Origin: an uncultured Candidatus Saccharibacteria bacterium
GTDB taxonomy: Bacteria > Patescibacteriota > WWE3 > 2-01-FULL-39-13
Assembly (NCBI GenBank): GCA_964510925.1
Contig: CAZEDS010000004.1
Span: 500 to 64,499 of the forward strand
Reading direction: 5' to 3'
DNA: 64,000 bases
Below, in pieces: positions 474 to 27,979 of the stretch (position 1 is the first letter of the stretch; the number at the start of each line of letters is the position of its first letter). The notes under the pieces were generated by a model. It was not told the origin of the DNA. It saw nothing but the letters and a program-made list of their open reading frames with translations, and made no database searches. The position numbers and the translations under genes are program-made.

Positions 474-1949
474 ATGTATTTATACAAAAAAGAAAAGTAT
501 AAAGTTTTAGAAGGTTCTAAAACCAACGCAGTATTATGTACTTGTTGGTTTGACCCATTTATTGTTGAGTCTAAATTTCCACAAATAAAAAAATATTTTT
601 CAATTACAGGAACGCTTTATAGCAAAGAAGGTGTTTCCATTTTGTTGCGAAATTTAGCGTTGAATCCACATATAAGATATTTATTTGTGTGGAGCAACAC
701 GCCACTTTCTAATACCCCTTTTGGTATTGCTGGTAGGGCTTTATTGGATGCTGTTTGGTCCGGGAACTTTGATCCGAATGATATTCACAAAGAAATTGAT
801 CGTGAAATTATAAAAAAAATTACTGACAATGTGGAGCTAATTCATTTTAAAAATGAATCTTTTGAACAATCTTTGTCGATGGCAGATTCTTTTGATAAAA
901 AAAATATCAATGAATATATGGACCCGATCTCCTTTGCTGATCCTGTTCGAGATGAATCAGTCCCATTTCCGTCTGAAAAAGTTGGCTGGCTTGTGCGTGA
1001 AAAATCAATCTATAGAGCTTGGTTAAACGTAGTCGAAAAGGTAATGAGATATGGATCAATAAAACTTACTGAATATGGAAATAACCAAAGAGAGCTTCAA
1101 AGTATTAATTGGATTATTGATAATGAAAGCTTTCCAAATATATATTTGCCTGATTTGGATTCAAAATTAATGCAAATTATTGGATTAAATGAAGAATCTT
1201 TGGCTAAATATAAAGAATCGCTTTTGGATTCCAAAATACCAAATGGTGTGGCATACACATATGGATCTAGGTTACGTTCTTATTTTGATATTGACCAAAT
1301 TGATATTCTTATTAATCAATTTAAAAAGGCGAATATTACTCGACGTGCTGTTGCAATCACCTATATTCCACAAATTGATACCACACATAGTTCTCCGCCA
1401 TGCTTAATTTTTGTACAACTTTTAATCGATGTTGATAATAAGTTGAATCTTTTTGCGTTATTTAGATCTCACGATATTTTTAAAGCGGGACTACCAAATG
1501 CATTTGGACTATTAAGTTTGCATGATTATATTTGTCAAAATTTACAGCTAAAGCGTGGAACACTTTCCATTCAAGATATTTCTTCGCACATATATGAAGA
1601 AGATTGGCAGAATGCAAATGACTTATTAAAATGTCAAAAATGGTCAGACATAAAGATTCAGTACAACGAAAATACAGAAACTGATCCACGGGGTATTGTT
1701 AGAATTTCATTAATGAATAAAAAAATTAATCTTGAGATTGTAAACTCAAACGGAGTTTTGGTTTTTGAAGACACCTCAGAATCTGCACGTGCTTTGATAA
1801 TGCGAATTTCAAAATTAGAATTACTTTCTATTCCAGCTCATCTTGCCGATATTTGTATTGAGCTTGTTAAAGCTGAAATTGCACTACAAATGGATCTTGA
1901 ATATGTGCAAGATCGTTTATTAAAATTCGGTACAGCCACTATAAAATAA
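474..1949 (+). CDS. thymidylate synthase / dNMP hydroxymethylase superfamily protein with a ~175-aa N-terminal extension
   Basis: The C-terminal ~315 aa align by eye to the ThyA core. [10 protein letters not shown] matches [19 protein letters not shown] matches the catalytic APCHAFFQF region, with the Cys retained and His replaced by Leu. [22 protein letters not shown] matches [34 protein letters not shown] matches GDTHLY. The N-terminal 175 aa have no counterpart in ThyA. Confidence 0.7.
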   Translation: [491 protein letters not shown]

Positions 1950-1952
1950 CTT

Positions 1953-3449
1953 TTAGCATTCACCACCATATATAGAAATATTCGGTTGGTTTAACATGCA
2001 TGAATTATTGTTGATCGTTTCGAGATTTTGTTTTTGCATCGATCGTATTCTCATGCATTCTAAACCTAAAAGATTGTTTATAAATGATTTATAAAATGCT
2101 GTAGTTGAACAAAATTTACTGACGTCTCCATTGTTTTCTGCTTTTCGTAGTCTAGGACATCCAAGTCCTCCGTGTAAGAATAGATAGTCAAAACTTTTGC
2201 TATCAAAATAGGTGAGCCCATTGAGATGTTGCATCGTATCCTTATATTTTTCGTTTACGATATCTAAAATATTTTCACCATTTTTTATGCGCTCAAAATT
2301 ATCTTTCATTTGGAATAAATCTTCATGGCATGGAGCTGCTCCTTCTGGGCCACAAGCCACATAATTTATTCCACTACCGCAAGTATATGGGGCAATGCCT
2401 GTTAAATTTATGTAATCAATAACACTTAGGCTTTGTATTGGAACTTTATTTTTTATCATCTGTTTAATTTTAGAGAAACCACGATTGAGTCCTTTCAGCA
2501 TAATAGAATACATTTTTTCAGATAATTCTTTGCTAATTCCACTTTGCGGTCTGAAAAACGCTATAAATACTGTGACCGGATGTTTGTTGCTCCAGTTTTT
2601 CCCGATAAATTTAGGCGAATTGATATCCCACATTGTTTCTATGAATTCTGGAAAATTATGTGCATTCGCAGGTGTTAAAACATAGTTAACGCTGTAATCG
2701 AGTCCGAAATTATCTATTGCTGAAATATTTTTGGTTATTACTTCATATGTTTCCATTTTATTTCTAGGCTTTCTTGAATTGTCTTGGACGCTTCCCGTTC
2801 CCCATAAACTTACGCTTAATGAAATATTATTTTGTTTAAAGAATTGTGCTTTTTTTTCGTCTAAAAAAACGCCATTAGTTAAGACTATTTGCTTAATATA
2901 TAAATTGGGATATTTATTTTTTAGCTCATTAATTTTATCTTGAGCTTGTAAAATTAAATCGTAAGACATTTTTAACAGAGGTTCGCCACCAGCCCATTTA
3001 ATTTTTATAGTTTTCATTTTTTTATCGTTTGCAGATTTTGCGAATGATTCTAGGTATGTTTCTAGTTTTGCTAAGTCTAAAGTTATTGCTTTGTTTAAGG
3101 GAATTCGGTCAATTGAAGTTGTGCATCCTGGGCATGAAAAATTGCATGCTTCTGTTAATTTTACGTACATTTGCGCATTATCTGGATTGTAATCAAGTTC
3201 GATTTTGACTTGCTCGTCATTTTTGTGGATGATTAAATTTTTTTCTAATATCGAAATATGTTTTTTGTTTATGCTTTCAAAATCATCATTTTGAATCGCT
3301 TCAATTGTTTTCCATTCAGCTCTATTTAAAAAATATATTTCGTTATTTATCGGATGGTATAAACCGATATTTTTTTTATTTCCTTTTCGATTAAAATAGG
3401 GCTCATTAATAATTTTTACGCCGTTGAATAGACGATATTCTTGAGTCAT
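1953..3449 (-). CDS. radical SAM enzyme with a C-terminal Cys-rich SPASM/twitch-like domain (putative peptide maturase)
   Basis: ACNFSCPGC is a CxxxCxxC radical SAM cluster motif near residue 100. The C-terminus has clustered Cys (YTCGSGINYVACGPEGAAPC ... GLGCPRL ... KFCST ... LECMR). The start ATG overlaps the stop of the upstream small peptide gene (ATGA). Confidence 0.75.
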   Translation of the reverse strand: MTQEYRLFNGVKIINEPYFNRKGNKKNIGLYHPINNEIYFLNRAEWKTIEAIQNDDFESINKKHISILEKNLIIHKNDEQVKIELDYNPDNAQMYVKLTEACNFSCPGCTTSIDRIPLNKAITLDLAKLETYLESFAKSANDKKMKTIKIKWAGGEPLLKMSYDLILQAQDKINELKNKYPNLYIKQIVLTNGVFLDEKKAQFFKQNNISLSVSLWGTGSVQDNSRKPRNKMETYEVITKNISAIDNFGLDYSVNYVLTPANAHNFPEFIETMWDINSPKFIGKNWSNKHPVTVFIAFFRPQSGISKELSEKMYSIMLKGLNRGFSKIKQMIKNKVPIQSLSVIDYINLTGIAPYTCGSGINYVACGPEGAAPCHEDLFQMKDNFERIKNGENILDIVNEKYKDTMQHLNGLTYFDSKSFDYLFLHGGLGCPRLRKAENNGDVSKFCSTTAFYKSFINNLLGLECMRIRSMQKQNLETINNNSCMLNQPNISIYGGEC

Positions 3450-3550
3450 ATTTTTGTTGTAAAAATATTAACGAATGAATTTTTTAGATCAGGGCAAGCA
3501 CAGTTGCATTGATCATTTTTTATGATTGTGTAAAGTTTTAGTTTTTTCAT
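3446..3550 (-). CDS. small peptide P1 (34 aa, MKKLKLYTIIKNDQCNCACPDLKNSFVNIFTTKI); putative RiPP precursor
   Basis: Manually translated; too short for the ORF track. Its TGA overlaps the rSAM ATG. It shares MKK-KL and the KNxQCxCACP core with paralog P2. Cys, Ala and Pro codons differ synonymously between the two copies. Confidence 0.5.
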   Translation of the reverse strand: MKKLKLYTIIKNDQCNCACPDLKNSFVNIFTTKI

Positions 3551-3609
3551 GTACCTACTATATGGTTTGGTACATGAAAAAACTTGAGTCTAACCTGAGT
3601 GTTCCTGAG

Positions 3610-3714
3610 TTATTTTTTAATTTTGGTAACTTTGATTTTTGAATCTTCCGTATTTGGACATGCGCAATCGCATTGATGATTTTTTACTGGTTTTGTTAAT
3701 TTAACTTTTTTCAT
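3610..3714 (-). CDS. small peptide P2 (34 aa, MKKVKLTKPVKNHQCDCACPNTEDSKIKVTKIKK); putative RiPP precursor
   Basis: It is the C-terminal 34 codons of the 67-aa track ORF at 3610..3813, starting at internal Met34. Paralogous to P1, with the same strand and orientation as the rSAM gene. Confidence 0.5.
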   Translation of the reverse strand: MKKVKLTKPVKNHQCDCACPNTEDSKIKVTKIKK

Positions 3715-3796
3715 ATGACACACATTATTGATATTTTGTTTTGCGGTTGCATTACTGTTTCTTATAACCTCTAGTATTCTTACTTTTTCCTTACTT

Positions 3797-3805
3797 TGGT
3801 ATAAT
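3797..3805 (+). promoter_or_regulatory. extended -10 element (TGgTATAAT) about 12 nt upstream of the ATG at 3818; near-leaderless transcript
   Basis: Sequence tttggtataat read directly. No Shine-Dalgarno between it and the ATG. Confidence 0.3.
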
Positions 3806-3817
3806 ATTGGCAAAATT

Positions 3818-4894
3818 ATGAAAAAGTCGGATGCCTCTAATATAAAGTATAAATTTAACTTAGGAATTGAAGCTGAAATGGTTCAATTTTATCGGGTAGC
3901 TCAAAATGAAAGCGCATTAAACTCAAATCGGGGTTTATTTTATGTTCTTCCATATCTTCCGAAAAGCTACGCCGATAGCCTCAAAACATGTTATTTCCCT
4001 GATCTTTCTTTACAGATAGATTTAAATGATTGGGTAAAGCTGAAAAAGAACAATTTTTATGCATACAATTCTTTGGCGTCGTACAAGAAGATCTTTTCTG
4101 GGTTGGCGGAGCATATGCTTCCAAAATCATATAAACAGAAATTAGTTGCTGACTTTGAATCCAAAAAACAGGGCTTTTTTGAAGATTTTAATAAAATTTT
4201 TGGTAAAACAGAGTTTCCGTTCTCAGAAATAGAGATCAACGTGATTTCGACTGGAACATTTGCTTCATACGATTATAAAGATAATAAAAAGCTTGAGCTA
4301 TATATTCGTGGAGATATGGCAGTCGATTTTATTTTTGAGCTTGTATTAACTGGATATCTGAGAAGAACTTATATCGACCATAAATTGAATAAAATTGATT
4401 ACGAAAATTTTGCGAACATTAATGAATGGATTGAGACAGAAAGTATTTCTGATTTTTTGATGACTGAAACAATTCTAAATAAATATTCAAAGAATTTTGT
4501 TCCGACTTTAAAAATTGTCACTGCAATTAATAATGAAGAATTGTTTAATGAATCACAAGCCTATCGTGAAAAACTGGGATTTGATACTTCTGTTAATAGT
4601 CGAATTTTAATTGATATGAATAAGAATCTTTGTTACAACAATAAGCCAATTGTTGGTTTGACTTTGCATGAGAAAAAAGTTCTTATGCTTCTTTCAGATA
4701 ATATCAATAGCACAATTTCTTATGAACGAATTGCAGAAGCACTTTGGGGACAAAATTATATTGAAAAATTCTCATTAGTTTATATAAATAAATTAATTTT
4801 TAGTGTCAGGCAAAAGCTAAAATTAAATCGATTACAAAATTTGAAAATCGATACGTTGCGAAGCTCTGGCTATATCTTGAGAAAAACAAATTAA
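3818..4894 (+). CDS. DNA-binding protein with C-terminal OmpR/PhoB-type winged helix (Trans_reg_C-like), no receiver domain; the N-terminal ~270 aa are unknown
   Basis: C-terminus LTLHEKKVLMLLSDN...ISYERIAEALWGQ...IDTLRSSGYILRK fits the OmpR wHTH pattern. The track ORF starts at 3728, but the first 30 codons overlap the P2 promoter region and are AT-rich hydrophobic filler. Internal Met31 at 3818 is preferred. Confidence 0.6.
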   Translation: MKKSDASNIKYKFNLGIEAEMVQFYRVAQNESALNSNRGLFYVLPYLPKSYADSLKTCYFPDLSLQIDLNDWVKLKKNNFYAYNSLASYKKIFSGLAEHMLPKSYKQKLVADFESKKQGFFEDFNKIFGKTEFPFSEIEINVISTGTFASYDYKDNKKLELYIRGDMAVDFIFELVLTGYLRRTYIDHKLNKIDYENFANINEWIETESISDFLMTETILNKYSKNFVPTLKIVTAINNEELFNESQAYREKLGFDTSVNSRILIDMNKNLCYNNKPIVGLTLHEKKVLMLLSDNINSTISYERIAEALWGQNYIEKFSLVYINKLIFSVRQKLKLNRLQNLKIDTLRSSGYILRKTN

Positions 4895-4904
4895 GCTAAA
4901 TACT

Positions 4905-6005
4905 ATGAAGATACATTCTGATTTAGATTATCCATTACTGCCAGAGACTTTGATTTCGATGGCTGAAAAAATTTCGAAATCTTCTGATGCCGGTCAATCA
5001 ATTTCATTTGTATTTGAAAAGGATATTGGGGGAGAACGTGCGTTACTAAGTTTTATTTATGATAATCGTGAATCAAAAGATTTTCAGAGATTTTTCAAAG
5101 ATAAGCTCGTATATAAATTTGATTTTTCGAATTTGCTTGAATATTCATTGGTAGGGTTTTTTTATGAGCTAAACAAAATTTTAAATCCTGGTGAAACATT
5201 GCCATATGAAAAATCTTCGATTGATTTTCTTCAATTGAAAATAAGAGACTCAATATCTAAAAATGTTGAAGCTGGGATACAAACAATTATTTTTATGCCT
5301 AAAGTTGATTCAATACCAAATTTTGATCAGTTGTATGGAAACCAATTAATGAATGTGTGGCGCTTAGATATTAACAAGCAAAAAATTGTATTCGTTTTCT
5401 CGATGGAAAAACATAAATATCAAAATTTTATTAATGAAAAAAGTGGTGATCTTAAATCTGTTTTGTTACAAAATCTTAATTTTATAGATAGATTTTCAGA
5501 AGAGGATATTAAACATAGTATTGAATATTGGCTTAAAAAGCTTGATTTTCAAATTGATCAAGAAGAATTTCGTTTAATTGTAAATTTGTCTGAAGGCTCA
5601 GCATATAAATCAAAATTACTTACTCAACATGTTGCTCAATTTCCTAAGCTTGGAAAAAATGAATTGGAACTTAAATTAAAAGAATTATTAAAGATAAGAT
5701 TTGAATTTTCAAATTCAAATGCAAAGCTCAAAATTATCGATGGGAATGTTTTTTTAGAAAACAAAAAATTCGAGGGAATAACTTCAACCGAATCTGATTT
5801 ATTGAAATTGTTTATTAATAACGAAGACACTGTGGTGAGTCGTGAAATGATTGCGGATTTATTATGGGGTAAAGAAAAATATGAGAAATATTCTGATTGG
5901 GCAATAGATAAACATATTTCAATTATAAGAAAAAAGTTAGAACAAAACTCGCTTGATGCGCATATCGAAACTATTAAAGGTTCTGGTTATAAGTTTTCTC
6001 AATAA
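4905..6005 (+). CDS. DNA-binding protein with C-terminal OmpR/PhoB-type winged helix; N-terminal domain unknown
   Basis: C-terminus SDLLKLFINNEDTVVSREMIADLLWG...HISIIRKKLE...IETIKGSGYKF matches the OmpR wHTH pattern. It lies 10 bp after the previous gene. Confidence 0.6.
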   Translation: MKIHSDLDYPLLPETLISMAEKISKSSDAGQSISFVFEKDIGGERALLSFIYDNRESKDFQRFFKDKLVYKFDFSNLLEYSLVGFFYELNKILNPGETLPYEKSSIDFLQLKIRDSISKNVEAGIQTIIFMPKVDSIPNFDQLYGNQLMNVWRLDINKQKIVFVFSMEKHKYQNFINEKSGDLKSVLLQNLNFIDRFSEEDIKHSIEYWLKKLDFQIDQEEFRLIVNLSEGSAYKSKLLTQHVAQFPKLGKNELELKLKELLKIRFEFSNSNAKLKIIDGNVFLENKKFEGITSTESDLLKLFINNEDTVVSREMIADLLWGKEKYEKYSDWAIDKHISIIRKKLEQNSLDAHIETIKGSGYKFSQ

Positions 6006-6007
6006 TC

Positions 6008-7474
6008 ATGAATGAACAAGATTCTAATGCTGAAACATTAGAGTATGATGAATATTTTGATTTAAATTTAATTCCTTCAGCTTTACTTAAAGATGCTGAT
6101 ATTGTTATGAAGCCATTTGAGTTTGGCGGCATAAATGAAACTTCACTTTTAACATATTCGCTATCGAAAGTGCTGGAGGCTAATGATAAAAAATTTTTAG
6201 AATTATCGGAAAATCCATATCATACAGTATCTTTAAACAGAGAAAGAGGTGGAATTGTATTAAGAATACAAACTCTTTTATCTGATTTACAGGAATCAAC
6301 TCAATGTGCATTTTTTATCGTAGGTGGTGCTGCCAGATCTTTGATGTCTCCAAATGATGAAAATCAAAGATTTAATGATTTGGATATTTGTATGATGCCA
6401 ACAAAATTTCAGAGTCCCGTTGATTTTATAAATTCAATTCGAAAATTTTTTTCAAGTCATCCAGCTATAAAATTGACGGCTCCTGAATATTCATATAATA
6501 ATTCAGTTTATCAAAATTCGTTTCCTCCTAATTTATCGACATTTCCAACATATTCAAAATATGAATATAATAAAAACCATACATTCGTAGGAGGCCTTCG
6601 TCCATCTGTTCGTAATGGCAATAATGATATAGAGATTAGACATGCAAGAGTTATACGTGTTTATCAAAAACATAATTCGCAAGCGATTAAGATTGGACTT
6701 TCAAAATATAAATATGATCGTAATGATAACTATATCTGTGTTGAGCTTGATTCTCCTAATTTTGAAGATGATTTTTGTGTTCCTCCAGTTTTTTTAGATC
6801 CTGAAAATCCATATTCAGTTGTGTTAATGCCAAATGGTCAGATTCTATCTTTAGAGATAAAACGTGATAAACCAATTAATACAGGTAATTTTAGTGCGAA
6901 GGATCAGTTTACATTTGCTACGAGAATTTTTTCAAAGCAAATCCCATTGATGAAGGTTCGTGAATCAGATCTTGGTACTTCATTTCCTATTGCAAGGTTA
7001 GAGAATGTAGAAATGGTTTTTAAAAATCAATTTCATGAGTTATTCGATCCTCAAAATGCTAAGGATTTAAATTTATGGAATTTTAATATTGCCATGAAGA
7101 TGCAAGAATATTTTGCTAAAAGTTTTAATGCTAATCCTGAAATTTTTAAATGTATGCTAACCCCTGAATTTTTTAACTATATGTGGAATGTTTTTCCAGG
7201 CTTAACAATGAAAATTGGACCTCATGTTGTAAAAGATTTTAATATGCAGTTCCCGAGATCAAGTACGACAAAACTTAGTGATGTTTATAAGTGCTTGTAT
7301 TATTTGTGGTACACAAAAGGGAAAACTTCTCCGATGTCAAAATTCATTAATTTAATTCCCGGTGTAGCTGATGAAATTGAAAAACTACAAGCTCGGAACA
7401 CAGGTCTGTGGAGCTTTGGATTTAATCATTTGGCATATGTTGAGAATAAGCGTAGACAAGCATCTAAAACATGA
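6008..7474 (+). CDS. hypothetical protein with a Pol-beta-like nucleotidyltransferase motif (GGAARSLM...NDLDI)
   Basis: FFIVGGAARSLMSPNDENQRFNDLDICM resembles the GG-x-R-D-x-LL ... D-x-D head motif of the CCA-adding/poly(A) polymerase family, with an insertion. The rest is unrecognisable. It begins 2 bp after the previous gene. Confidence 0.35.
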   Translation: MNEQDSNAETLEYDEYFDLNLIPSALLKDADIVMKPFEFGGINETSLLTYSLSKVLEANDKKFLELSENPYHTVSLNRERGGIVLRIQTLLSDLQESTQCAFFIVGGAARSLMSPNDENQRFNDLDICMMPTKFQSPVDFINSIRKFFSSHPAIKLTAPEYSYNNSVYQNSFPPNLSTFPTYSKYEYNKNHTFVGGLRPSVRNGNNDIEIRHARVIRVYQKHNSQAIKIGLSKYKYDRNDNYICVELDSPNFEDDFCVPPVFLDPENPYSVVLMPNGQILSLEIKRDKPINTGNFSAKDQFTFATRIFSKQIPLMKVRESDLGTSFPIARLENVEMVFKNQFHELFDPQNAKDLNLWNFNIAMKMQEYFAKSFNANPEIFKCMLTPEFFNYMWNVFPGLTMKIGPHVVKDFNMQFPRSSTTKLSDVYKCLYYLWYTKGKTSPMSKFINLIPGVADEIEKLQARNTGLWSFGFNHLAYVENKRRQASKT

Positions 7475-7486
7475 TTTTTTAGAAAA

Positions 7487-7495
7487 TGGTATACT
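7487..7495 (+). promoter_or_regulatory. extended -10 element (TGgTATACT) giving a ~230-nt leader for the RRM protein gene
   Basis: Sequence aatggtatact read directly. A long untranslated gap precedes the GTG start at 7730. Confidence 0.25.
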
Positions 7496-7729
7496 TTGCT
7501 CAGAACTCTGACAGTGTTTGAAGTATCGAAGTTCCATTTTTTTGCTTTACGTTGTAAGTGCAGGTAATTTGGTCAACTCCGTTAAGTTTTAAGAAATTAA
7601 AATTTATTGGATCCTTCATATTTCCCATCTAAAGAGTGAGTGTGAATCCGTCTTAAAAGGCGGTTTCAAGCTGTTTTAGACTAAAAACTAGAATAGCGAA
7701 GTTCAATTATTTAGGAGGTGAATTTTTAA

Positions 7730-8047
7730 GTGACCAAATTATACGTTGGAAATCTTCCTTACAAGATTACTTCAGAAGACCTAAAGCAAATGTTCTCCGC
7801 ATATGGAGAAGTAACTGCTACAGTCATTATGGACAAAATGTCAGGTAGATCAAAAGGCTTCGGCTTTGTTGAACTAGACGATGCTGTTTCAGAACAGGTT
7901 ATATCTGAGATGAATGGCAAAGACATGGAAGGCAGAGCTCTCGTTGTTAATGTCGCCAGACCTATGGAAGACAGACCAAAGAGACCTTTCGATAATAACA
8001 GAGGCGGCGGCCGATCAGGCGGCAGCTTCAGCAGAGATCGTTATTAA
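7730..8047 (+). CDS. RRM-domain RNA-binding protein with Gly/Arg-rich tail
   Basis: LYVGNLPY (RNP2) and KGFGFVEL (RNP1). GTG start with AGGAGG 11 nt upstream. The C-terminus is RGGGRSGGSFSRDRY. Confidence 0.85.
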   Translation: MTKLYVGNLPYKITSEDLKQMFSAYGEVTATVIMDKMSGRSKGFGFVELDDAVSEQVISEMNGKDMEGRALVVNVARPMEDRPKRPFDNNRGGGRSGGSFSRDRY

Positions 8048-8121
8048 ACATTAGATAGGACTAGTATCTGCCTTTTGGTTAGATACTGGTTTATCTTGGT
8101 TTTGAGATATCTCTAGAAAAA

Positions 8122-8146
8122 GGCCCACGAAAGTGGGTCTTTTTTG
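8122..8146 (+). terminator. rho-independent terminator (GGCCCAC-GAAA-GTGGGTC plus T7)
   Basis: Hairpin plus U-run immediately after the RRM gene. Confidence 0.6.
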
Positions 8147-8353
8147 TTATATGACACTTTAGTAAAAAACGGGTCTGACCCATTTTATTATCCGTTAATA
8201 ATTCGATTTTTGTTGGTTTTCCGGACTATTTCGGTTTTGGCTCGTAAAAGTTTTAACTAAAATATTAAATCTCCCTAAGACAAAAATCTTAACAGTTCAT
8301 AAAACGGGTCAGACCCTATCTGAAAAGGGTTATTTCATATATAATAGTCACTT

Positions 8354-10168
8354 ATGGACTTGAGAAATATCGCAATCATCGCACACGTCGACCACGGCAA
8401 AACCACATTAGTAGACGGACTTTTAAAACAATCAAAAACTTTCAGAGAAAATGAAGCATTCATGTCTCAAGAATTGATAATGGATTCCAATGATCAGGAA
8501 CGAGAAAGAGGCATCACAATTTTGGCTAAAAACACAGCAGTAATCTACAAAGACGTTAAAATCAACATTATTGATACCCCGGGTCACTCGGATTTTAGTG
8601 GAGAAGTCGAGCGTACATTAAACATGGCTGATGGTGCATTGTTGCTTGTAGACGCTCAAGAAGGTCCAATGCCACAAACAAAATTTGTGTTGAAAAAGGC
8701 TTTAGAGCTTAAGTTAAAACTCATTGTGATCGTTAATAAGATCGATAAAAAAGATGCTAGAGTCAAAGAAACTTTAGATAAAATTTATAATCTTTTTTTG
8801 GAACTTGCTACCGATGACAGTCAGTTAGAATTTCCAATTTTGTATGCAATCGGTCGAGATGCAAAATCATGGGAAAAAATGCCAAATGATTTTTCAGAAT
8901 CCGCAGATTTAACACCAATTTTTGATGCGATTTTAAAGTATATTCCTTCTCCTGCAGTAGAAGAAAATCAACCTTTCCAAATGTTGGTTTCTTCACTTGA
9001 TTGGGATAATTACAAAGGTAAATATGCAATTGGTAGAATTCGACGTGGTGCTATAAAGTCAGGTGATCAGCTTAAATTGATGAATCTCGAAGGAAAAAAT
9101 GAGCAAGTAACTGTTGATAAGATTTTTGTTAACCAAGGTTTAAAGAGGGTAGAGTCAACTATTGGCGAATCTGGCGATATTATTGCGATTACGGGTATTA
9201 AAAATGCAGAGATCGGTGATACATTGTCGGCTTCAGGTCATGCTGATGACATCTTTTCATCAATCAAGATTGGTGAACCTACTTTGAGCATTTCGATTGG
9301 ACCTAATACTTCTCCTTTAGTTGGAAAAGAAGGCTCTATATTAACTGGTCGACAAATTTTGGATCGTATTCAACAAGAGCTTCATGTAAATGTTGCTATG
9401 CGTTTTAGAATTGACGAAAGTGGACAATACATTTTATCTGGTAGAGGTGAGCTTCATATTTGTGTGTTTTTAGAAACTTTAAGTAGAGAAGGTTACGAGC
9501 TGGAAATTGGAAAGCCAAAAGTCATCACTAAAGTAATCGATGGTCATGAAGTCGAACCAATTGAAGAGTATTTGGTCGATGTTCCTGAAGAGCATGTTGG
9601 TGCAGTTAAAAGCGAATTTTCACAACGTGCAGGAGTTTTGATGATGCAAGAAGAAGCCGGTGTTGGAACTTCTCGATTGATTTTTGAAATTCCTACTAGA
9701 TATGTTTTAGGTTTGCGAAGCTTACTTCTAACTTTGACAAAAGGAACTGCTATCTCAAGTTCAACCTTTTTGCGTTATGACCGTGTAAATCAAACGATCA
9801 AAAAAACTAGAAAAGGTGTTCTTATCGCTACTGAATCAGGAAAAGCCACTATTTATGGCTTACGTAATGCACAAGAGCGTGGTGGTACCTTTATCGAGCC
9901 TCAAACACTAGTTTATGGCGGAATGATCGTCGGTATCAACCCTCGTGAAGGTGACCTCGAAATTAATGTTTGTAAGCCTAAACCAGTTTCAAACGTTCGC
10001 TCAAAAGGTGAAGATACAATCTTTTTAAGTGCTCCAATAAAAATGAGCCTTGAACAATTTTTTGGCTTTTTAGAAGAAGACGAACTTTTGGAAATAACAC
10101 CTCAAAATTTACGTTTGCGCAAAAAAATTCTTGATATGAATTTGCGATACAAGAGCCAACGAAAATAA
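8354..10168 (+). CDS. typA: translational GTPase TypA/BipA
   Basis: N-terminus LRNIAIIAHVDHGKTTLVD with the G-domain motifs DTPGHSDF and NKID. 604 aa. Confidence 0.9.
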   Translation: MDLRNIAIIAHVDHGKTTLVDGLLKQSKTFRENEAFMSQELIMDSNDQERERGITILAKNTAVIYKDVKINIIDTPGHSDFSGEVERTLNMADGALLLVDAQEGPMPQTKFVLKKALELKLKLIVIVNKIDKKDARVKETLDKIYNLFLELATDDSQLEFPILYAIGRDAKSWEKMPNDFSESADLTPIFDAILKYIPSPAVEENQPFQMLVSSLDWDNYKGKYAIGRIRRGAIKSGDQLKLMNLEGKNEQVTVDKIFVNQGLKRVESTIGESGDIIAITGIKNAEIGDTLSASGHADDIFSSIKIGEPTLSISIGPNTSPLVGKEGSILTGRQILDRIQQELHVNVAMRFRIDESGQYILSGRGELHICVFLETLSREGYELEIGKPKVITKVIDGHEVEPIEEYLVDVPEEHVGAVKSEFSQRAGVLMMQEEAGVGTSRLIFEIPTRYVLGLRSLLLTLTKGTAISSSTFLRYDRVNQTIKKTRKGVLIATESGKATIYGLRNAQERGGTFIEPQTLVYGGMIVGINPREGDLEINVCKPKPVSNVRSKGEDTIFLSAPIKMSLEQFFGFLEEDELLEITPQNLRLRKKILDMNLRYKSQRK

Positions 10169-23126: not shown

Positions 23127-26100
23127 TTATTTTTGTTGTGTTGACGTTTCTGTTTTGTTAAATAATAAACTTGTAAAATTTGCTAAGTAATTTTTGTTTT
23201 TAATATTTTTTGCGATCTCGAGTTCTAAAATAGGTATTAATTTTAAAGCAGAGCCGTCCCATGTAAAATTTTTAGACCAAGCTAATGAATTATTTTGTAG
23301 GTTGGTTAAAAGTTCTGGATCTTCGATTATTTGTTTAATTCTTTTTGTAAAATCATTGACGCTTCCATATTTGACTAAGTATCCACTGTATTCGTGTTTA
23401 ACTGAATCTTTTAAACCTGGTACATTTGATGCAAGTACTGGCGTTCCACAAGAGTTTGCTTCAATTACTGAAATTCCCCAACCTTCCCAAATTGAAGGAT
23501 ATACAAAAATCCAAGCAGCTGACATGAGTTGGATTTTTTCTTCTTCTGTGACTTTGCCCAAAAATTTTATATGTTTTTCTAATTTTAATTTTTCAACAAT
23601 TTTTTGTAAGTGTGGGGTGTGGTCACCGAATCCAGCAATATTTAATTCAATGTTTGGAATTTCTTTTTTTAGTTTATCAATTGCATGAATTACTACTTCG
23701 ATAGATTTGTAAGATTTGATTCTGCCGAGATATAAAAGTGAAGGATGCTCAGTTTTTTTGCTTGTATAAAATTTAGATGATTCTGCACCAGGGTGAATAA
23801 TTTCAATTGCCTGATTTTTGCCTAGTCCAATTTTTATCATATCTTTTTTTGTCGAATCTGAAACAGTTATCATCTTGCAATTTTTATATACGATTGGCAT
23901 TATGTTAGATTCTAAAAACCTAGCAATATATGCAATTGGTTTTAAATGCAATGCAAGATCTAGCTCTTTTAAAATTATTTCTCGATGTACGTGGTGTACA
24001 AGACCGATAACAGGAGCGTCTGCATAAATAGGGGAGAAAAATGGGATTCCATTTTCTGAATCTATAACGACATCAAATTTTCCTCTGAATCTAAAAATGT
24101 AATAGATAAATGACCAAATATATACGGTGAATTGGCCACCTCTTCTTATTATGTAAATACCATCAATGGTTTCTCTACGTTTTGATTTTTGGTCATTTCC
24201 GCAGAATATAACGATAGACATTCCTTGTTTTTTTAAGCTTTTTGCAATTTCATGAACATAGGCTTCAGCACCACCTGCCCAAGTGTGTTTGGTATCTCTC
24301 CAGTTTAATATTAAAACACGCTTATTTTTATTTTCGATATGATCACTTGGAAGTTCTGAAAATAAATCTATAAAATCTTTTATATTGAGCCAAATTGTAA
24401 GAATATTTTTTTCATAATAATGAACTACAAAGGTCACCCCTAGGTTCAAAATTGAAAGAATAAAAATAGTATTAATAAAAGTTTGTAAGTTTGTTCCAAA
24501 TATAGAAAGAGCAGTAATCTGTGCCATTGCTATTACAAAGCTGATTATTGGGGTAATATAGTTTTTTCTGATTTGGTGGAATCCAATCACACAGCTTGAA
24601 AGTGTGAAGAATAATATTGCTAATGCATACTCTGGTAACAAGTAAGTTACAGGTACTATTTTTTGGCCTAATAAAATTGGAGCTGTTATATTTCCAAAAT
24701 ATCCAAAGAATAAATATGAAAAAAATCCGATGATTGCTGTAAACCCAAAAATCCAATAAAAACGTTGGCTGCTGTCTGCTTGTTCACCTTCACTCTTGCT
24801 TATAAATGGAACTAAAAACTGTCCAGCCAGTGAGCTTAAAAAGAATATCATTTTGCCTACTAGTGAAATCAACGCATAATATCCTGCATCGCTAGGTGAT
24901 AAATAATGTTTAGCCAAAATAATATCAATGCTAATAAATGCGATAACTGAAAATCTATAGATTACACCGCTTAAAAAAAATTCAGTAGGGAACTTTAATA
25001 TAATGTTAGAATTTTCAATTTGTTTATCTGTTTTGATTCTGCAAGCAAATACGTATCCGATTATTAGGGCCACAATCATTGATAATGGAATTGCATAATA
25101 CACAGAATCTTTTGATATATATGTATTGAGCAAATAAGTTAGAGCTAGTTTTGCAATTGGTTCCGATACAATTACAATGCTCAACAATTTGAATTTGTGT
25201 ACTCCATTAATATATCCATAATCGATTGATGAAAGTGCACCTATAATCCAAATCGGAGCAAATATAATAAATGGTATTACTGAACTTTCATTGAAAAAAC
25301 TTATTATAAATGGAGTTGCGATTAACCATGCGATGGCAAAAATTGTTGAGATTCCAAAAAATTTCTTTCGAGCATATCTCCAGAATCTGCCTATGATTTG
25401 GTCGAATTTCCCAAGAGAATATCCACTTTCGTATGCAACAGTTAACGATAATGAGCTAAAAAATAATGACGCAACAAATAAAAAGTTATTGAATAAACTT
25501 ATTAATCCAAAATCTTCGATGGTAAGGACTCTGCTCAGGTATGCGTTGCAAAGATAATTTAATGCATTACTAGCAAGTAATGCGATTATTAAAATAAATT
25601 CGCCATTTTTGTTGAGCTTATTAATCGCAAGAGCTAAGACTTTTATTTTTTTTTCTTCTTTTGGATTTGTTGTTACTGTTAGTTTTTCAGGTTCAATATT
25701 TGTAGCATTTTTTGGTTTATCTTTATTATTTTTTTTGAATAATGAAAATCTTTTTTTTTGGATAAGGTGAAGGCCGTGATTTGTTTTTTCCCAGTGATGC
25801 GGATTAAATATTAGCTGATAAAAGGCCATTACGGCGGCAAAAAACATTAATATCCAATAGAAAGGCACGAGAAAAACAAATTTCATTAATCCCCAATGAC
25901 CTCTTTTTGCACAGCCGATCATATAGTTATAAAGATAAATGAAATTACCAAATATCAATGAAATTGCGGCCATATAAAAAACTACAGTTGGGAACAGCGA
26001 TTCAATAAAAGGTGCAAGTTGGTTATAAAATACAAAATATGAAATTGTTGTTAGCCATAAAAATGGGTTGATTAAAATAAAGCTAATTCTGAGTCCAATT

Positions 26101-27902
26101 ATTAATTGAAATACAAAAGCATGTTTCCCATGTGCTTTAAAAAATTTAGCAGGGTTTCTCATGTGCACCAGATATGTTTGCATGTATCCTTTAATCCATC
26201 TTGATCGCTGTCTGATCCAATTTCGTGTGTTACTGTTTGCTTCTTCTAAAGTAGTTGAATCAATAATTGCGGTTGTGTAACCTAGTTTGAAAAGTCTAGA
26301 ACCAAGATCGCAGTCCTCAGTTACATTGAATGGATCCCAACCTTGTAATTCACGCAATTTTTTTGTTATGAAATGGTTGCTTGTTCCACCTAAAGGAATG
26401 ATCGTATTAATTGATTGGAGCCCAGGCAAAATAACATCAAACCAGAGTGAATATTCTGCAGTAAAAAAGCGTGTTAATAAATTGTGATTAGCGTTAAAGT
26501 AGTTTAATTTTGCTTGTACGCAAACTGTTTTTTCTCCAAGTTTGGTAAAGGCAAGATAGGCTTTTTTAAGTTGGTCTGGATCTGGTTTGTCTTCTGCATC
26601 ATAAATAACCACATATTCTCCATTTGCCCTTAAAAGTCCGTAATTACATGCTTTTGGCTTGGTCTTTGGCATTGAATGCGGTACAACCATTACTTTGAAA
26701 TACGAAGGTAATGTAATAGATTTTGCTGTTTCTATCGTTTCTAGATCATTAGCTTCTAATAGCAAAAGAACCTCAAGTTTATCTTTCGGCCAATTTAATG
26801 CCTCAATATGCTCCGCAAAAAAAGGCAAAACTTCTGATTCTTTGTAAAGTGGGCATAATACTGTATAAAGTGGCAAGGTTTTGTCATCTATTGCTGCGAT
26901 TTCATCCTTTTCAAACGTGAATTCTGGTGGGAAATGAAGACTTTTTAAAATCACATAAACATTAAAAAGCACATCTAAGAAGTAGATCGTGCTTAATATT
27001 GCAATGAAAATTAATGCGCATAAAAATGGATTGTAAATTATTGCTGCGATTAAGCCTATTCCAATTAATCCAAATGCTATTTTTTGAGATCTAACAAATG
27101 TATAAATTGCGGATTCTTTATGTGGAAGATGAGAGTGAGTTAAATATGCTTTTTTCTTATAAATGATACCTTTTTCAAAAGTATTCGGTTCATCAAGTTC
27201 GTATATTTTTTTAGGAGATAGTTTAACTTTTAACGCACACATTATAATTGCGTATGAAGTTTTTATTATCCCTACCTTTGAAGCACCATGCTTTCTGTCA
27301 CTGAATGTTATCGTTACCGAATCAAAGGTATAACCAAGTTCTCGTGCGGCTTCAAGCAAAGGAATGTCAAAAGTCCAAGGCGTAACGAGTTTTCTGTTAA
27401 TGTGGTTAATAATTTCTTTGCGAAAAATTTTTAGGCCAGATTGAATATCTACGTCCATACCTAAGAGCATTTTTCCAACTATAAAAGCGTTAACTTTTGA
27501 TAAAACGGCTCTTTCTCTAGAGAGGTTTTGAGTTTTGCGTTGTGCAATTACAACTCCAGTTTTAGCGTTTTCTTGGAGCTTTTTTACCATCTCTGGCAAA
27601 TGTTTAGGATGATATTGCAAATCGCCGTCAATAAATGCCACAAAATCAGCTGTTACTAGGTCTAGACCTTCTAAAATTGAATAACCTTTTCCGCCTTTTC
27701 CTTGCTTTTCATGAAGTATTACTGGATGGCTATCTTGCATTTTTTTAATATTTTCGATAGTTTTATCAGTGGATTGATCTACGATGAAGATTATTCTATA
27801 TTCTATGTTAGAGGGGGCGAGTGCCTGCTCAATGCTCAATACCATGTCTTTGATATTTTTTTCTTCGTTTTTTACGGGGACAATAATATCGATGACCGAC
27901 AT
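23127..27902 (-). CDS. 1591-aa multidomain fusion: GT2 (DPM1-like), processive GT2 (QxxRW), Wzx-like polysaccharide flippase, and GT4
   Basis: Domain 1: IIVPVKNEEKNI...FIDGDLQYHP. Domain 2: VLCPLYKESEV...VIYDAEDKPD...QRSRWIKG. Middle: about 12 TM segments resembling a Wzx N-terminus (NALNYLCNAYLSRVL). C-terminus: RVLILNWRD...EGWGISVIEANSCGTPVLASN (E-x7-E). Start moved to Met14 (27902). Confidence 0.75.
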   Translation of the reverse strand: MSVIDIIVPVKNEEKNIKDMVLSIEQALAPSNIEYRIIFIVDQSTDKTIENIKKMQDSHPVILHEKQGKGGKGYSILEGLDLVTADFVAFIDGDLQYHPKHLPEMVKKLQENAKTGVVIAQRKTQNLSRERAVLSKVNAFIVGKMLLGMDVDIQSGLKIFRKEIINHINRKLVTPWTFDIPLLEAARELGYTFDSVTITFSDRKHGASKVGIIKTSYAIIMCALKVKLSPKKIYELDEPNTFEKGIIYKKKAYLTHSHLPHKESAIYTFVRSQKIAFGLIGIGLIAAIIYNPFLCALIFIAILSTIYFLDVLFNVYVILKSLHFPPEFTFEKDEIAAIDDKTLPLYTVLCPLYKESEVLPFFAEHIEALNWPKDKLEVLLLLEANDLETIETAKSITLPSYFKVMVVPHSMPKTKPKACNYGLLRANGEYVVIYDAEDKPDPDQLKKAYLAFTKLGEKTVCVQAKLNYFNANHNLLTRFFTAEYSLWFDVILPGLQSINTIIPLGGTSNHFITKKLRELQGWDPFNVTEDCDLGSRLFKLGYTTAIIDSTTLEEANSNTRNWIRQRSRWIKGYMQTYLVHMRNPAKFFKAHGKHAFVFQLIIGLRISFILINPFLWLTTISYFVFYNQLAPFIESLFPTVVFYMAAISLIFGNFIYLYNYMIGCAKRGHWGLMKFVFLVPFYWILMFFAAVMAFYQLIFNPHHWEKTNHGLHLIQKKRFSLFKKNNKDKPKNATNIEPEKLTVTTNPKEEKKIKVLALAINKLNKNGEFILIIALLASNALNYLCNAYLSRVLTIEDFGLISLFNNFLFVASLFFSSLSLTVAYESGYSLGKFDQIIGRFWRYARKKFFGISTIFAIAWLIATPFIISFFNESSVIPFIIFAPIWIIGALSSIDYGYINGVHKFKLLSIVIVSEPIAKLALTYLLNTYISKDSVYYAIPLSMIVALIIGYVFACRIKTDKQIENSNIILKFPTEFFLSGVIYRFSVIAFISIDIILAKHYLSPSDAGYYALISLVGKMIFFLSSLAGQFLVPFISKSEGEQADSSQRFYWIFGFTAIIGFFSYLFFGYFGNITAPILLGQKIVPVTYLLPEYALAILFFTLSSCVIGFHQIRKNYITPIISFVIAMAQITALSIFGTNLQTFINTIFILSILNLGVTFVVHYYEKNILTIWLNIKDFIDLFSELPSDHIENKNKRVLILNWRDTKHTWAGGAEAYVHEIAKSLKKQGMSIVIFCGNDQKSKRRETIDGIYIIRRGGQFTVYIWSFIYYIFRFRGKFDVVIDSENGIPFFSPIYADAPVIGLVHHVHREIILKELDLALHLKPIAYIARFLESNIMPIVYKNCKMITVSDSTKKDMIKIGLGKNQAIEIIHPGAESSKFYTSKKTEHPSLLYLGRIKSYKSIEVVIHAIDKLKKEIPNIELNIAGFGDHTPHLQKIVEKLKLEKHIKFLGKVTEEEKIQLMSAAWIFVYPSIWEGWGISVIEANSCGTPVLASNVPGLKDSVKHEYSGYLVKYGSVNDFTKRIKQIIEDPELLTNLQNNSLAWSKNFTWDGSALKLIPILELEIAKNIKNKNYLANFTSLLFNKTETSTQQK

Positions 27903-27979
27903 AGTAATAAAATTAACACTAAACACCCAAGCCCAGGGCACTGGCTATAGGTTTAGATTATACAGGAAAATTCTGTTAG

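What the first reader, a model, noticed from the sequence alone, without database searches (positions are those of the whole stretch)
474..1949. Divergent ThyA-superfamily enzyme with 175-aa N-terminal extension and altered active-site neighbourhood
The C-terminal part aligns to the thymidylate synthase / dNMP hydroxymethylase fold. The catalytic Cys (SPPC), the RR pair, the RSxD phosphate-binding segment and the C-terminal HxY are retained. The conserved His after the Cys is Leu, the Gln of YQRS is replaced, and the specificity Asn region (LPFNIAS) reads LPNAFGL. An N-terminal domain of about 175 aa has no ThyA counterpart. Such variants often act on a different nucleotide, for example dCMP/dUMP hydroxymethylases and other pyrimidine C5-modifying enzymes of phages and defence islands. 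Its location beside the rSAM/peptide cassette, convergent and 3 bp apart, makes a role in an accessory pathway plausible.
Basis: partly seen in the sequence, partly recalled or inferred. Interest (0 to 1): 0.6.

Follow-up and report, generated by a model that had tools for sequence, protein, structure and literature searches.

The report
Three-domain thymidylate synthase of CPR bacteria
This gene is most likely the everyday enzyme that ultra-small CPR bacteria and DPANN archaea use to make the DNA building block dTMP, but it always carries two extra, unstudied domains, one related to a vitamin-B12-binding protein of methanogens.

Summary
The 491-aa ORF at 474-1949(+) is real. It is not a lone oddity: it belongs to a large, uniform family found in at least 221 species genomes of Patescibacteria/CPR and DPANN archaea, and databases already call it "thymidylate synthase". 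It has three domains. Residues 1-140 form an MtrA-like Rossmann domain. Residues 172-400 form a methanogen-type ThyA core. All dUMP-binding and catalytic residues are kept, including the specificity Asn (N342 = E. coli N177, in register). The "altered" neighbourhood (Leu after Cys, RSHD) is also present in the one stand-alone methanogen-type ThyA compared. Homologues sit beside thymidylate kinase, dCTP/dCMP deaminases and dUTPase. They do not sit beside radical-SAM genes, so the rSAM/peptide cassette here is an incidental neighbour. No phage or defence link was found. The best reading is a housekeeping dUMP-to-dTMP synthase. What is open is the role of the two invariant accessory domains. The MtrA-like domain keeps part of MtrA's nucleotide-tail pocket but lacks the cobalt-ligating His. 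DUF4346 has no solved structural relative. I found no paper describing this architecture. Verdict: an ordinary function in an undescribed variant of a known enzyme; moderate interest.

The parts
474..1949 (+). Complete gene for the 491-aa three-domain thymidylate-synthase-family protein (stop codon included)
   Evidence: ORF list. An identical protein lies on a 175,925-bp wastewater-metagenome contig. More than 120 full-length homologues were found.
474..893 (+). N-terminal MtrA-like Rossmann domain (residues 1-140). It lacks the cobalt-ligating His of MtrA (I85, nt 726-728, aligns to MtrA His84).
894..986 (+). Conserved linker without regular secondary structure (residues 141-171; Y148, M149, F154, P166, S167, E168 are conserved)
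987..1673 (+). Methanogen-type ThyA catalytic core (residues 172-400). Key residues: C310 (nt 1401-1403), R290/R291, R331, S332, D334, N342 (nt 1497-1499), H372, Y374.
1683..1913 (+). C-terminal DUF4346 domain (residues 404-480) with invariant R406, H456, A467, E468, Q479, D480

Best explanation
The gene encodes the housekeeping thymidylate synthase of a Patescibacteria (CPR) bacterium. The central domain is a methanogen/archaeal-type ThyA. I infer the classic ThyA chemistry. Cys310 adds to C6 of dUMP. The dUMP is held by R331, S332, D334, N342, H372 and Y374, plus R290/R291 from the partner subunit of a dimer. C5 then takes a one-carbon unit from a methylene-pterin, probably salvaged methylene-tetrahydrofolate, to give dTMP.

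Two accessory domains are fused to this core in every family member examined. They are an N-terminal MtrA-like Rossmann domain and a C-terminal DUF4346 domain. Their loops are highly conserved and are polar or aromatic. I infer, without showing it, that they bind or position the cofactor. DUF4346 would take the place of the C-terminal segment that closes over folate in canonical ThyA and that the one stand-alone methanogen-type ThyA compared lacks.

Shown here: the domain composition, the conserved residues, the phyletic spread and the gene neighbourhood. Inferred: the substrate, the product, the one-carbon donor and the role of the accessory domains.
For: - Residues: C310, R331, S332, D334, N342 and H372 are invariant in 54/54 homologues; R290, R291 and Y374 in 53/54. 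All are in register with E. coli C146, R166, S167, D169, N177, H207, R126/R127 and Y209.
- Neighbourhood in about 85 loci: thymidylate kinase occurs in 36. A mixed cluster of dCTP deaminase, dCMP deaminase and dNMP-kinase-like genes occurs in 31. dUTPase occurs in 11. Many are adjacent and co-oriented, for example dcd-thyA-tmk in L006 and L007.
- Spread: at least 221 GTDB species genomes of CPR and DPANN carry a relative. All 85 loci carry all three domains; L069 fails the C-domain threshold only because of an assembly gap.
- Folate use is plausible. glyA (serine hydroxymethyltransferase, the enzyme that loads methylene-THF) lies 2 kb downstream in L048. CPR genomes commonly carry glyA, folD and folA (81%, 80% and 55%; PMC11974145). 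dTMP synthesis is described as part of the minimal Patescibacteria gene repertoire (PMC12455944).
- No second ThyA or ThyX is present in the 64-kb window.
Against: - No biochemistry exists for this family or, to my knowledge, a full reconstitution for any methanogen-type ThyA.
- The position equivalent to E. coli L143 is Ser here and S36/E11/N5 in the family. L143 is the water-excluding residue; it is Asp/Glu in hydroxymethylases.
- One locus (L069) has an intact ThyX next to the three-domain gene. One archaeal contig has a canonical 298-aa ThyA and a DHFR-SHMT fusion 4 kb away. The protein may therefore not be redundant with a normal thymidylate synthase.
- Only 64 kb of the source genome was visible, so absence of another thymidylate synthase in this organism is not shown.
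- The accessory domains are too conserved to be passive, yet their ligand is unknown.
Confidence: 0.62

Rival explanations
1. It is a thymidylate synthase with changed redox or cofactor chemistry. The MtrA-like and DUF4346 domains would hold a bound cofactor (a flavin, a corrinoid or a tightly held pterin). dTMP would then be made without releasing dihydrofolate. The hydride could come from a reduced flavin, as in ThyX. Alternatively, the Cys-dUMP enolate could take a methyl group directly from methyl-Co(III), a redox-neutral route.
For: - The N-domain is a true MtrA homologue. It keeps G57 and N64 of MtrA's nucleotide-tail pocket as invariant G53 and N60, and V61 as I/M/L.
- Its loops after strands 1-3 carry invariant W25, Y49, R59, L78 and S79, with S50 in 53/54 and C22 in 50/54, which suggests a ligand site.
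- An FNR-type reductase (RxFS and GGIGITP motifs) lies 3-8 bp downstream in four loci and within 400 bp in two more.
- About 45% of CPR genomes lack folA (PMC11974145).
Against: - The cobalt ligand His84 is replaced by a variable residue (S/I/K/V/R/L), and the GAIPFxxEN meander motif is absent.
- D169 is Asp, not the Asn seen in the flavin-dependent hydroxylases.
- The reductase neighbour occurs in only 6 of about 85 loci.
- No corrinoid or methyltransferase genes were seen nearby.
- No ligand can be assigned from sequence or from AF2 models.
Confidence: 0.15
2. It is a pyrimidine C5-modifying enzyme other than a thymidylate synthase. Examples would be a dUMP hydroxymethylase or an enzyme acting on another nucleotide.
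For: - The residue at the L143-equivalent position is polar or acidic (S/E/N). Asp/Glu at this position correlates with hydroxymethyl products in phage enzymes.
- The gene co-occurs with ThyX in L069 and with canonical ThyA plus DHFR-SHMT on one archaeal contig.
Against: - Asn177 and Asp169 equivalents are invariant, so it is neither a dCMP enzyme nor a 5-hydroxy-dCMP synthase.
- The stand-alone methanogen-type ThyA compared also has Glu at the L143 position. Such enzymes are, from my own knowledge and not tested here, the only thymidylate synthase of thymine-containing methanogens.
- The adjacent tmk argues for dTMP as the product.
- No glycosyltransferase or other hypermodification genes, and no phage or defence context, were found.
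Confidence: 0.1
3. It works in an accessory pathway together with the adjacent radical-SAM/peptide cassette.
For: The rSAM/SPASM gene ends 3 bp from the ThyA stop codon. Two Cys-rich precursor-like peptides lie upstream of the rSAM gene.
Against: - The two genes are convergent, so they are separate transcripts.
- No radical-SAM gene recurs beside the homologues in about 85 loci.
- The closest NCBI homologue (L005) has dcd upstream instead.
Confidence: 0.02

Closest known systems
Methanogen/archaeal-type thymidylate synthase (NCBIfam TIGR03283; e.g. ORF59 of Methanobacterium virus PhiF1, QGH71215.1)
   Same: The core scores above the family's curated cutoff. It is 32% identical to the PhiF1 protein over residues 178-374. 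It shares PCL, RSHD, the Asn at D+8 and HIY.
   Different: The PhiF1 protein has a single 210-aa domain and the TIGR03283 model has 201 positions. This protein adds a 140-aa MtrA-like domain, a 30-aa conserved linker and a DUF4346 domain. K337 is invariant here but is Gly in PhiF1.
Canonical ThyA (E. coli, L. casei; PF00303)
   Different: H147 is Leu, Q165 is Phe and L143 is Ser. The roughly 50 C-terminal residues of E. coli ThyA, which include the folate-closing tail, have no aligned counterpart here; a helix and then DUF4346 follow instead. Sequence similarity is limited to about 130 residues.
Bifunctional DHFR-TS of protozoa and plants
   Same: An N-terminal extra domain of 150-230 aa precedes a thymidylate synthase in one chain.
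MtrA, the corrinoid subunit of methyl-H4MPT:CoM methyltransferase (PDB 5laa, 5l8x)
   Different: There is no His84 cobalt ligand, no GAIPFxxEN meander and no membrane anchor. A family-specific xPLSxT insertion with invariant L78 and S79 is present. The domain is fused to ThyA in organisms that are not methanogens.
Phage dCMP hydroxymethylase, 5-hydroxy-dCMP synthase and MilA (ThyA-fold C5 modifiers)
   Different: The diagnostic substitutions N177D and D169N are absent. The L143 position is Ser in this protein. No phage homologue covers the accessory domains.

Membership tests
ThyA / dCMP-hydroxymethylase superfamily (PF00303) | ThyA alpha/beta fold | tested here: met
   [not shown]
ThyA / dCMP-hydroxymethylase superfamily (PF00303) | Catalytic Cys in a P-C motif, plus the Arg-Arg pair supplied by the partner subunit | tested here: met
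   C310 in 54/54; R290 and R291 each in 53/54.
Thymidylate synthase proper (dUMP to dTMP) | Asn at the E. coli 177 position (dUMP rather than dCMP) and Asp at position 169 | tested here: met
   N342 and D334 are invariant and in register. The criteria come from PMC13326640.
Thymidylate synthase proper (dUMP to dTMP) | Hydrophobic residue at the E. coli L143 position (excludes water and favours a methyl product) | tested here: not met
   S307 here; S36/E11/N5 in the family. The stand-alone methanogen-type ThyA compared has Glu there, so the rule may not apply to this clade.
Thymidylate synthase proper (dUMP to dTMP) | Catalytic formation of dTMP, or complementation of a thyA mutant | not testable with these tools
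   Only genomic context is available: tmk, dcd, dCMP deaminase and dut as neighbours.
Methanogen-type ThyA (TIGR03283) | Score above the curated equivalog cutoff | tested here: met
   187.8 bits against 174.55, residues 173-380.
Methanogen-type ThyA (TIGR03283) | Single-domain protein of about 200-220 aa | tested here: not met
   The protein is 491 aa with three domains. The PhiF1 member is 210 aa.
dCMP hydroxymethylase / 5-hydroxy-dCMP synthase | N177D (dCMP); L143D/E (hydroxymethyl product); D169N (flavin-dependent hydroxylase) | tested here: not met
   N342, S307 and D334 in this protein.
Bifunctional DHFR-TS | N-terminal DHFR domain (PF00186) | tested here: not met
   No DHFR hit. The N-domain fold is MtrA-like.
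MtrA corrinoid protein (PF04208) | MtrA Rossmann-type fold and sequence homology | tested here: met
   [not shown]
MtrA corrinoid protein (PF04208) | His84 lower axial cobalt ligand and the GAIPF(Y/F)xEN meander | tested here: not met
   His84 aligns to I85, a variable position (S14, I10, K9, V8 ...). The meander is not conserved.
MtrA corrinoid protein (PF04208) | Binds a corrinoid | not testable with these tools
   Equivalents of tail-pocket residues G57 and N64 are invariant. No ligand can be inferred from that.
ThyX (PF02511) | RHRxxSxxxxS motif and Thy1 domain | tested here: not met
   No such motif occurs in the protein or anywhere in the window.

The most novel reading that the evidence does not exclude
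The invariant MtrA-like and DUF4346 domains would make this a mechanistically new thymidylate synthase. It would be a ThyA-fold enzyme that carries its own bound cofactor (corrinoid, flavin or a captive pterin). It would make dTMP without releasing dihydrofolate, and so would not depend on DHFR. By a gene-fusion ('Rosetta stone') argument, this would also hint that the unexplained cytoplasmic MtrA homologues of methanogens work with their stand-alone ThyA.
Probability: 0.15. Interest if true: 0.8.

Novelty: new variant of a known kind. Interest (0 to 1): 0.4.

Why it matters
Thymidylate synthesis is essential and is a drug target, and only two enzyme types (ThyA and ThyX) are established. The CPR/DPANN form is annotated simply as "thymidylate synthase". 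Yet every member examined carries two extra domains, one taken from the methanogen corrinoid methyltransferase system, and their conserved polar and aromatic loops point to a ligand site. These organisms have minimal genomes and live on scavenged cofactors. If the accessory domains capture, hold or recycle the one-carbon cofactor, that would explain how they keep DNA synthesis going. It would also give a way into the still unreconstituted chemistry of archaeal-type ThyA. If the domains are only structural, the gene is an ordinary housekeeping enzyme.

Tried and rejected
- DHFR as the N-terminal partner: no Pfam hit, and the fold is MtrA-like.
- Phage or defence origin: tblastn against 50,697 phage records matches only the ThyA core. 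BFVD Foldseek gives a query-normalised TM-score of at most 0.39. PADLOC has no hit for the protein.
- Functional link to the rSAM cassette: not conserved in about 85 loci.
- Literature: searches for DUF4346, PterinBD, ThyA with MtrA, 9IQC and MJ0757/TIGR03283 found no description of this architecture. The Asgard ThyA paper (PMC9931769) does not mention it in the passages searched.
- The gene upstream of PhiF1 ThyA is not MtrA-like or DUF4346-like.
- The neighbourhoods of archaeal paralogues with a degenerate middle domain (P0245, P0218) gave no functional hint.
- L069 first looked C-terminally truncated, but that is an assembly gap (run of N); the gene is intact.

Full report
THE OBSERVATION

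The ORF at 474..1949 on the + strand is real and encodes 491 aa. An identical protein is recorded on a 175,925-bp contig from a wastewater metagenome. Pfam finds Thymidylat_synt at residues 261-398 (E 6.8e-13). It also finds a sub-threshold PterinBD-DUF4346 match at 404-480, which passes the cutoff when the C-terminal piece is scanned alone (30.7 against 29.6 bits). NCBIfam places residues 173-380 in TIGR03283, the methanogen-type thymidylate synthase, at 187.8 bits against a curated cutoff of 174.55. The first 171 residues have no Pfam match.

THE ACTIVE SITE

I built a profile from 54 homologues (alignment A1) and aligned it to E. coli ThyA. Its numbering agrees with the residue list in PMC13326640. 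There are no gaps across the catalytic segments. The correspondences are:
- C310 = C146
- R290/R291 = R126/R127
- R331 = R166, S332 = S167, D334 = D169
- N342 = N177
- H372 = H207, Y374 = Y209

C310, R331, S332, D334, N342 and H372 are invariant in 54/54 family members; R290, R291 and Y374 are kept in 53/54.

L311 replaces H147 and F330 replaces Q165. I add that S307 replaces L143. A phage-database search turned up a stand-alone "methanogen-type thymidylate synthase", ORF59 of Methanobacterium virus PhiF1 (210 aa). It also has PCL, RSHD, the Asn at D+8 and HIY, with Glu at the L143 position and Trp at the Q165 position. On this one comparison, the "altered neighbourhood" looks like the signature of the archaeal-type ThyA clade, not a peculiarity of this gene.

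PMC13326640 gives diagnostic substitutions for other ThyA-fold activities. N177D marks dCMP use, L143D/E marks hydroxymethyl products and D169N marks flavin-dependent 5-hydroxy-dCMP synthases. This protein has none of them.

THE EXTRA DOMAINS

Wagner et al. (PMC4915002) define the MtrA cobalamin site. His84 is the cobalt ligand, bonded to Glu54. There is a conserved GAIPF(Y/F)xEN meander. The nucleotide tail sits in a pocket that includes Gly57, Val61 and Asn64. Mapping these onto this protein gives:
- G57, V61 and N64 correspond to invariant G53, I/M/L57 and invariant N60.
- His84 aligns to I85, a variable position (S, I, K, V, R, L).
- The meander is not conserved.

The family instead has its own conserved loop residues after strands 1-3. 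W25, Y49, R59, L78, S79 and G84 are invariant; S50 is kept in 53/54 and C22 in 50/54. That pattern suggests a ligand site, but the ligand cannot be assigned.

HOW COMMON IT IS

- More than 120 full-length homologues of about 500 aa were returned. Nearly all carry both PF00303 and PF14251, and several sources name them "thymidylate synthase".
- A scan of one genome per GTDB species found 221 genomes encoding a relative. The best 80 are Patescibacteria/CPR lineages (WWE3, Woese-, Roizman-, Uhr-, Wolfe-, Jorgensen- and Paceibacteria) and DPANN archaea (Woese-, Aenigm-, Nano- and Pacearchaeota).
- A profile of the N-domain alone, run against 1.84 billion representative proteins, finds only 375 clusters. 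Most of those listed are 460-530 aa with the domain at the N-terminus. Of ten atypical-length members scanned, seven showed ThyA plus DUF4346, two showed DUF4346 without a ThyA hit and one had no hit.
- All 85 loci I analysed carry all three domains. The one apparent exception, L069, is an assembly gap.
- A small archaeal side-branch of about 400 aa keeps the MtrA-like and DUF4346 domains but has a degenerate middle domain without the catalytic motifs.

GENOMIC CONTEXT

In this window the gene lies between an uncharacterised upstream gene and a convergent radical-SAM/SPASM gene 3 bp away. It is not conserved beside the homologues.

I clustered the neighbours in about 85 loci; a few of the loci are duplicates of the same contig. 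Thymidylate kinase occurs in 36 loci. A mixed cluster of dCTP deaminase, dCMP deaminase and P-loop dNMP-kinase-like genes occurs in 31. dUTPase occurs in 11. Several Patescibacteria loci have the compact arrangement dcd-thyA-tmk. The closest NCBI homologue has dcd 10 bp upstream. This is the neighbourhood expected for an enzyme that takes dUMP and hands dTMP to Tmk.

The protein has no PADLOC hit. No phage record or viral structure model covers more than the ThyA core.

WHAT IT MOST LIKELY DOES

The best-supported reading (about 0.6) is the housekeeping dUMP-to-dTMP synthase of a CPR bacterium, working by ThyA chemistry. The one-carbon donor is probably salvaged methylene-tetrahydrofolate. CPR genomes commonly encode glyA (81%), folD (80%) and folA (55%) (PMC11974145). 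glyA lies 2 kb from the gene in L048. dTMP synthesis is described as part of the minimal Patescibacteria repertoire (PMC12455944).

Three points count against a simple reading:
- The residue at the L143 position is polar or acidic. The stand-alone methanogen-type enzyme shares this, so the phage-derived rule may not transfer to this clade.
- An intact ThyX is adjacent in L069, and a canonical ThyA plus a DHFR-SHMT fusion lie 4 kb away on one archaeal contig.
- Only 64 kb of the source genome could be checked for a second thymidylate synthase; none was found.

THE OPEN PART

The two accessory domains are invariant and their pockets are conserved, yet I found no paper that describes them in this context.

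Several leads point to a non-classical cofactor arrangement:
- The MtrA tail pocket is partly retained.
- An FNR-type reductase lies 3-8 bp downstream in four loci and within 400 bp in two more.
- There is precedent for flavin binding in a ThyA fold: 9iqc, and PMC13326640.
- About 45% of CPR genomes lack folA.

Together these allow a reading in which dTMP is made without releasing dihydrofolate. The hydride could come from a flavin, or the methyl group could come directly from a methyl-corrinoid. The missing His84, the retained Asp169 and the rarity of the reductase neighbour argue against it. I give it about 0.15.

VERDICT

The interpretation (different nucleotide, phage or defence flavour, link to the rSAM cassette) is not supported. 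The gene is a member of a widespread family already annotated as thymidylate synthase. Its three-domain architecture is an undescribed variant of a known enzyme kind. The function is ordinary; the interest is moderate and comes from the unexplained accessory domains.

Noticed in passing
window 3446-3550 (-) and 3610-3714 (-), upstream of 1953-3449 (-): Two paralogous 34-aa peptides lie directly upstream of the radical-SAM/SPASM gene: MKKLKLYTIIKNDQCNCACPDLKNSFVNIFTTKI and MKKVKLTKPVKNHQCDCACPNTEDSKIKVTKIKK. The first overlaps the rSAM start codon. The arrangement looks like a RiPP cassette with a CxCxC core. The rSAM gene's best NCBIfam hits are peptide maturases, all far below their cutoffs.
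   Followed up: partly
window 3728-4894 (+) and 4905-6005 (+): Two tandem proteins carry a C-terminal OmpR-type winged-helix domain (Trans_reg_C) but no receiver domain. They are divergent from the peptide/rSAM cassette. A 488-aa ORF with no Pfam hit follows at 6008-7474.
   Followed up: no
L032:7494-8156, L034:7494-8156, L042:7051-7728, L048:6204-6875, L049:7894-8565, L057:7505-8167: An FNR-type oxidoreductase of 221-226 aa (RxFS and GGIGITP motifs, Pfam NAD_binding_1) lies downstream of the three-domain ThyA on the same strand. The gap is 3-8 bp in four loci and 178-400 bp in two. It could be a reductase partner. In L048, glyA follows 2 kb further on.
   Followed up: partly
L069:674-5454: This Patescibacteria locus has a dense dNTP-metabolism gene row: tmk, thyX (Pfam Thy1, RHRxxS motif), three-domain thyA, dCMP deaminase, dNMP-kinase-like gene, dUTPase. 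Both thymidylate synthase types are intact and adjacent.
   Followed up: partly
contig carrying P0045 (JGI sample 3300072015, no DNA held), gene positions 3328-9479 of the listing: An archaeal contig (archaeal-type flagellin, TrmB) carries a canonical 298-aa ThyA and a DHFR-SHMT fusion protein about 4 kb upstream of the three-domain ThyA.
   Followed up: no
P0171, P0218, P0244, P0245 (loci L088:8001-9248, L090:8001-9188): Archaeal proteins of about 400 aa keep the MtrA-like N-domain and DUF4346. P0171, P0218 and P0245 have a shortened middle domain without the PC and RSxD motifs, while P0244 is cut off inside DUF4346. The precomputed Pfam hits are only MtrA and DUF4346. Their neighbourhoods were uninformative.
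   Followed up: partly
window 23127-27941 (-): A very long ORF of 1604 aa lies on the minus strand. It was not examined.
   Followed up: no
[not shown]
   Followed up: partly
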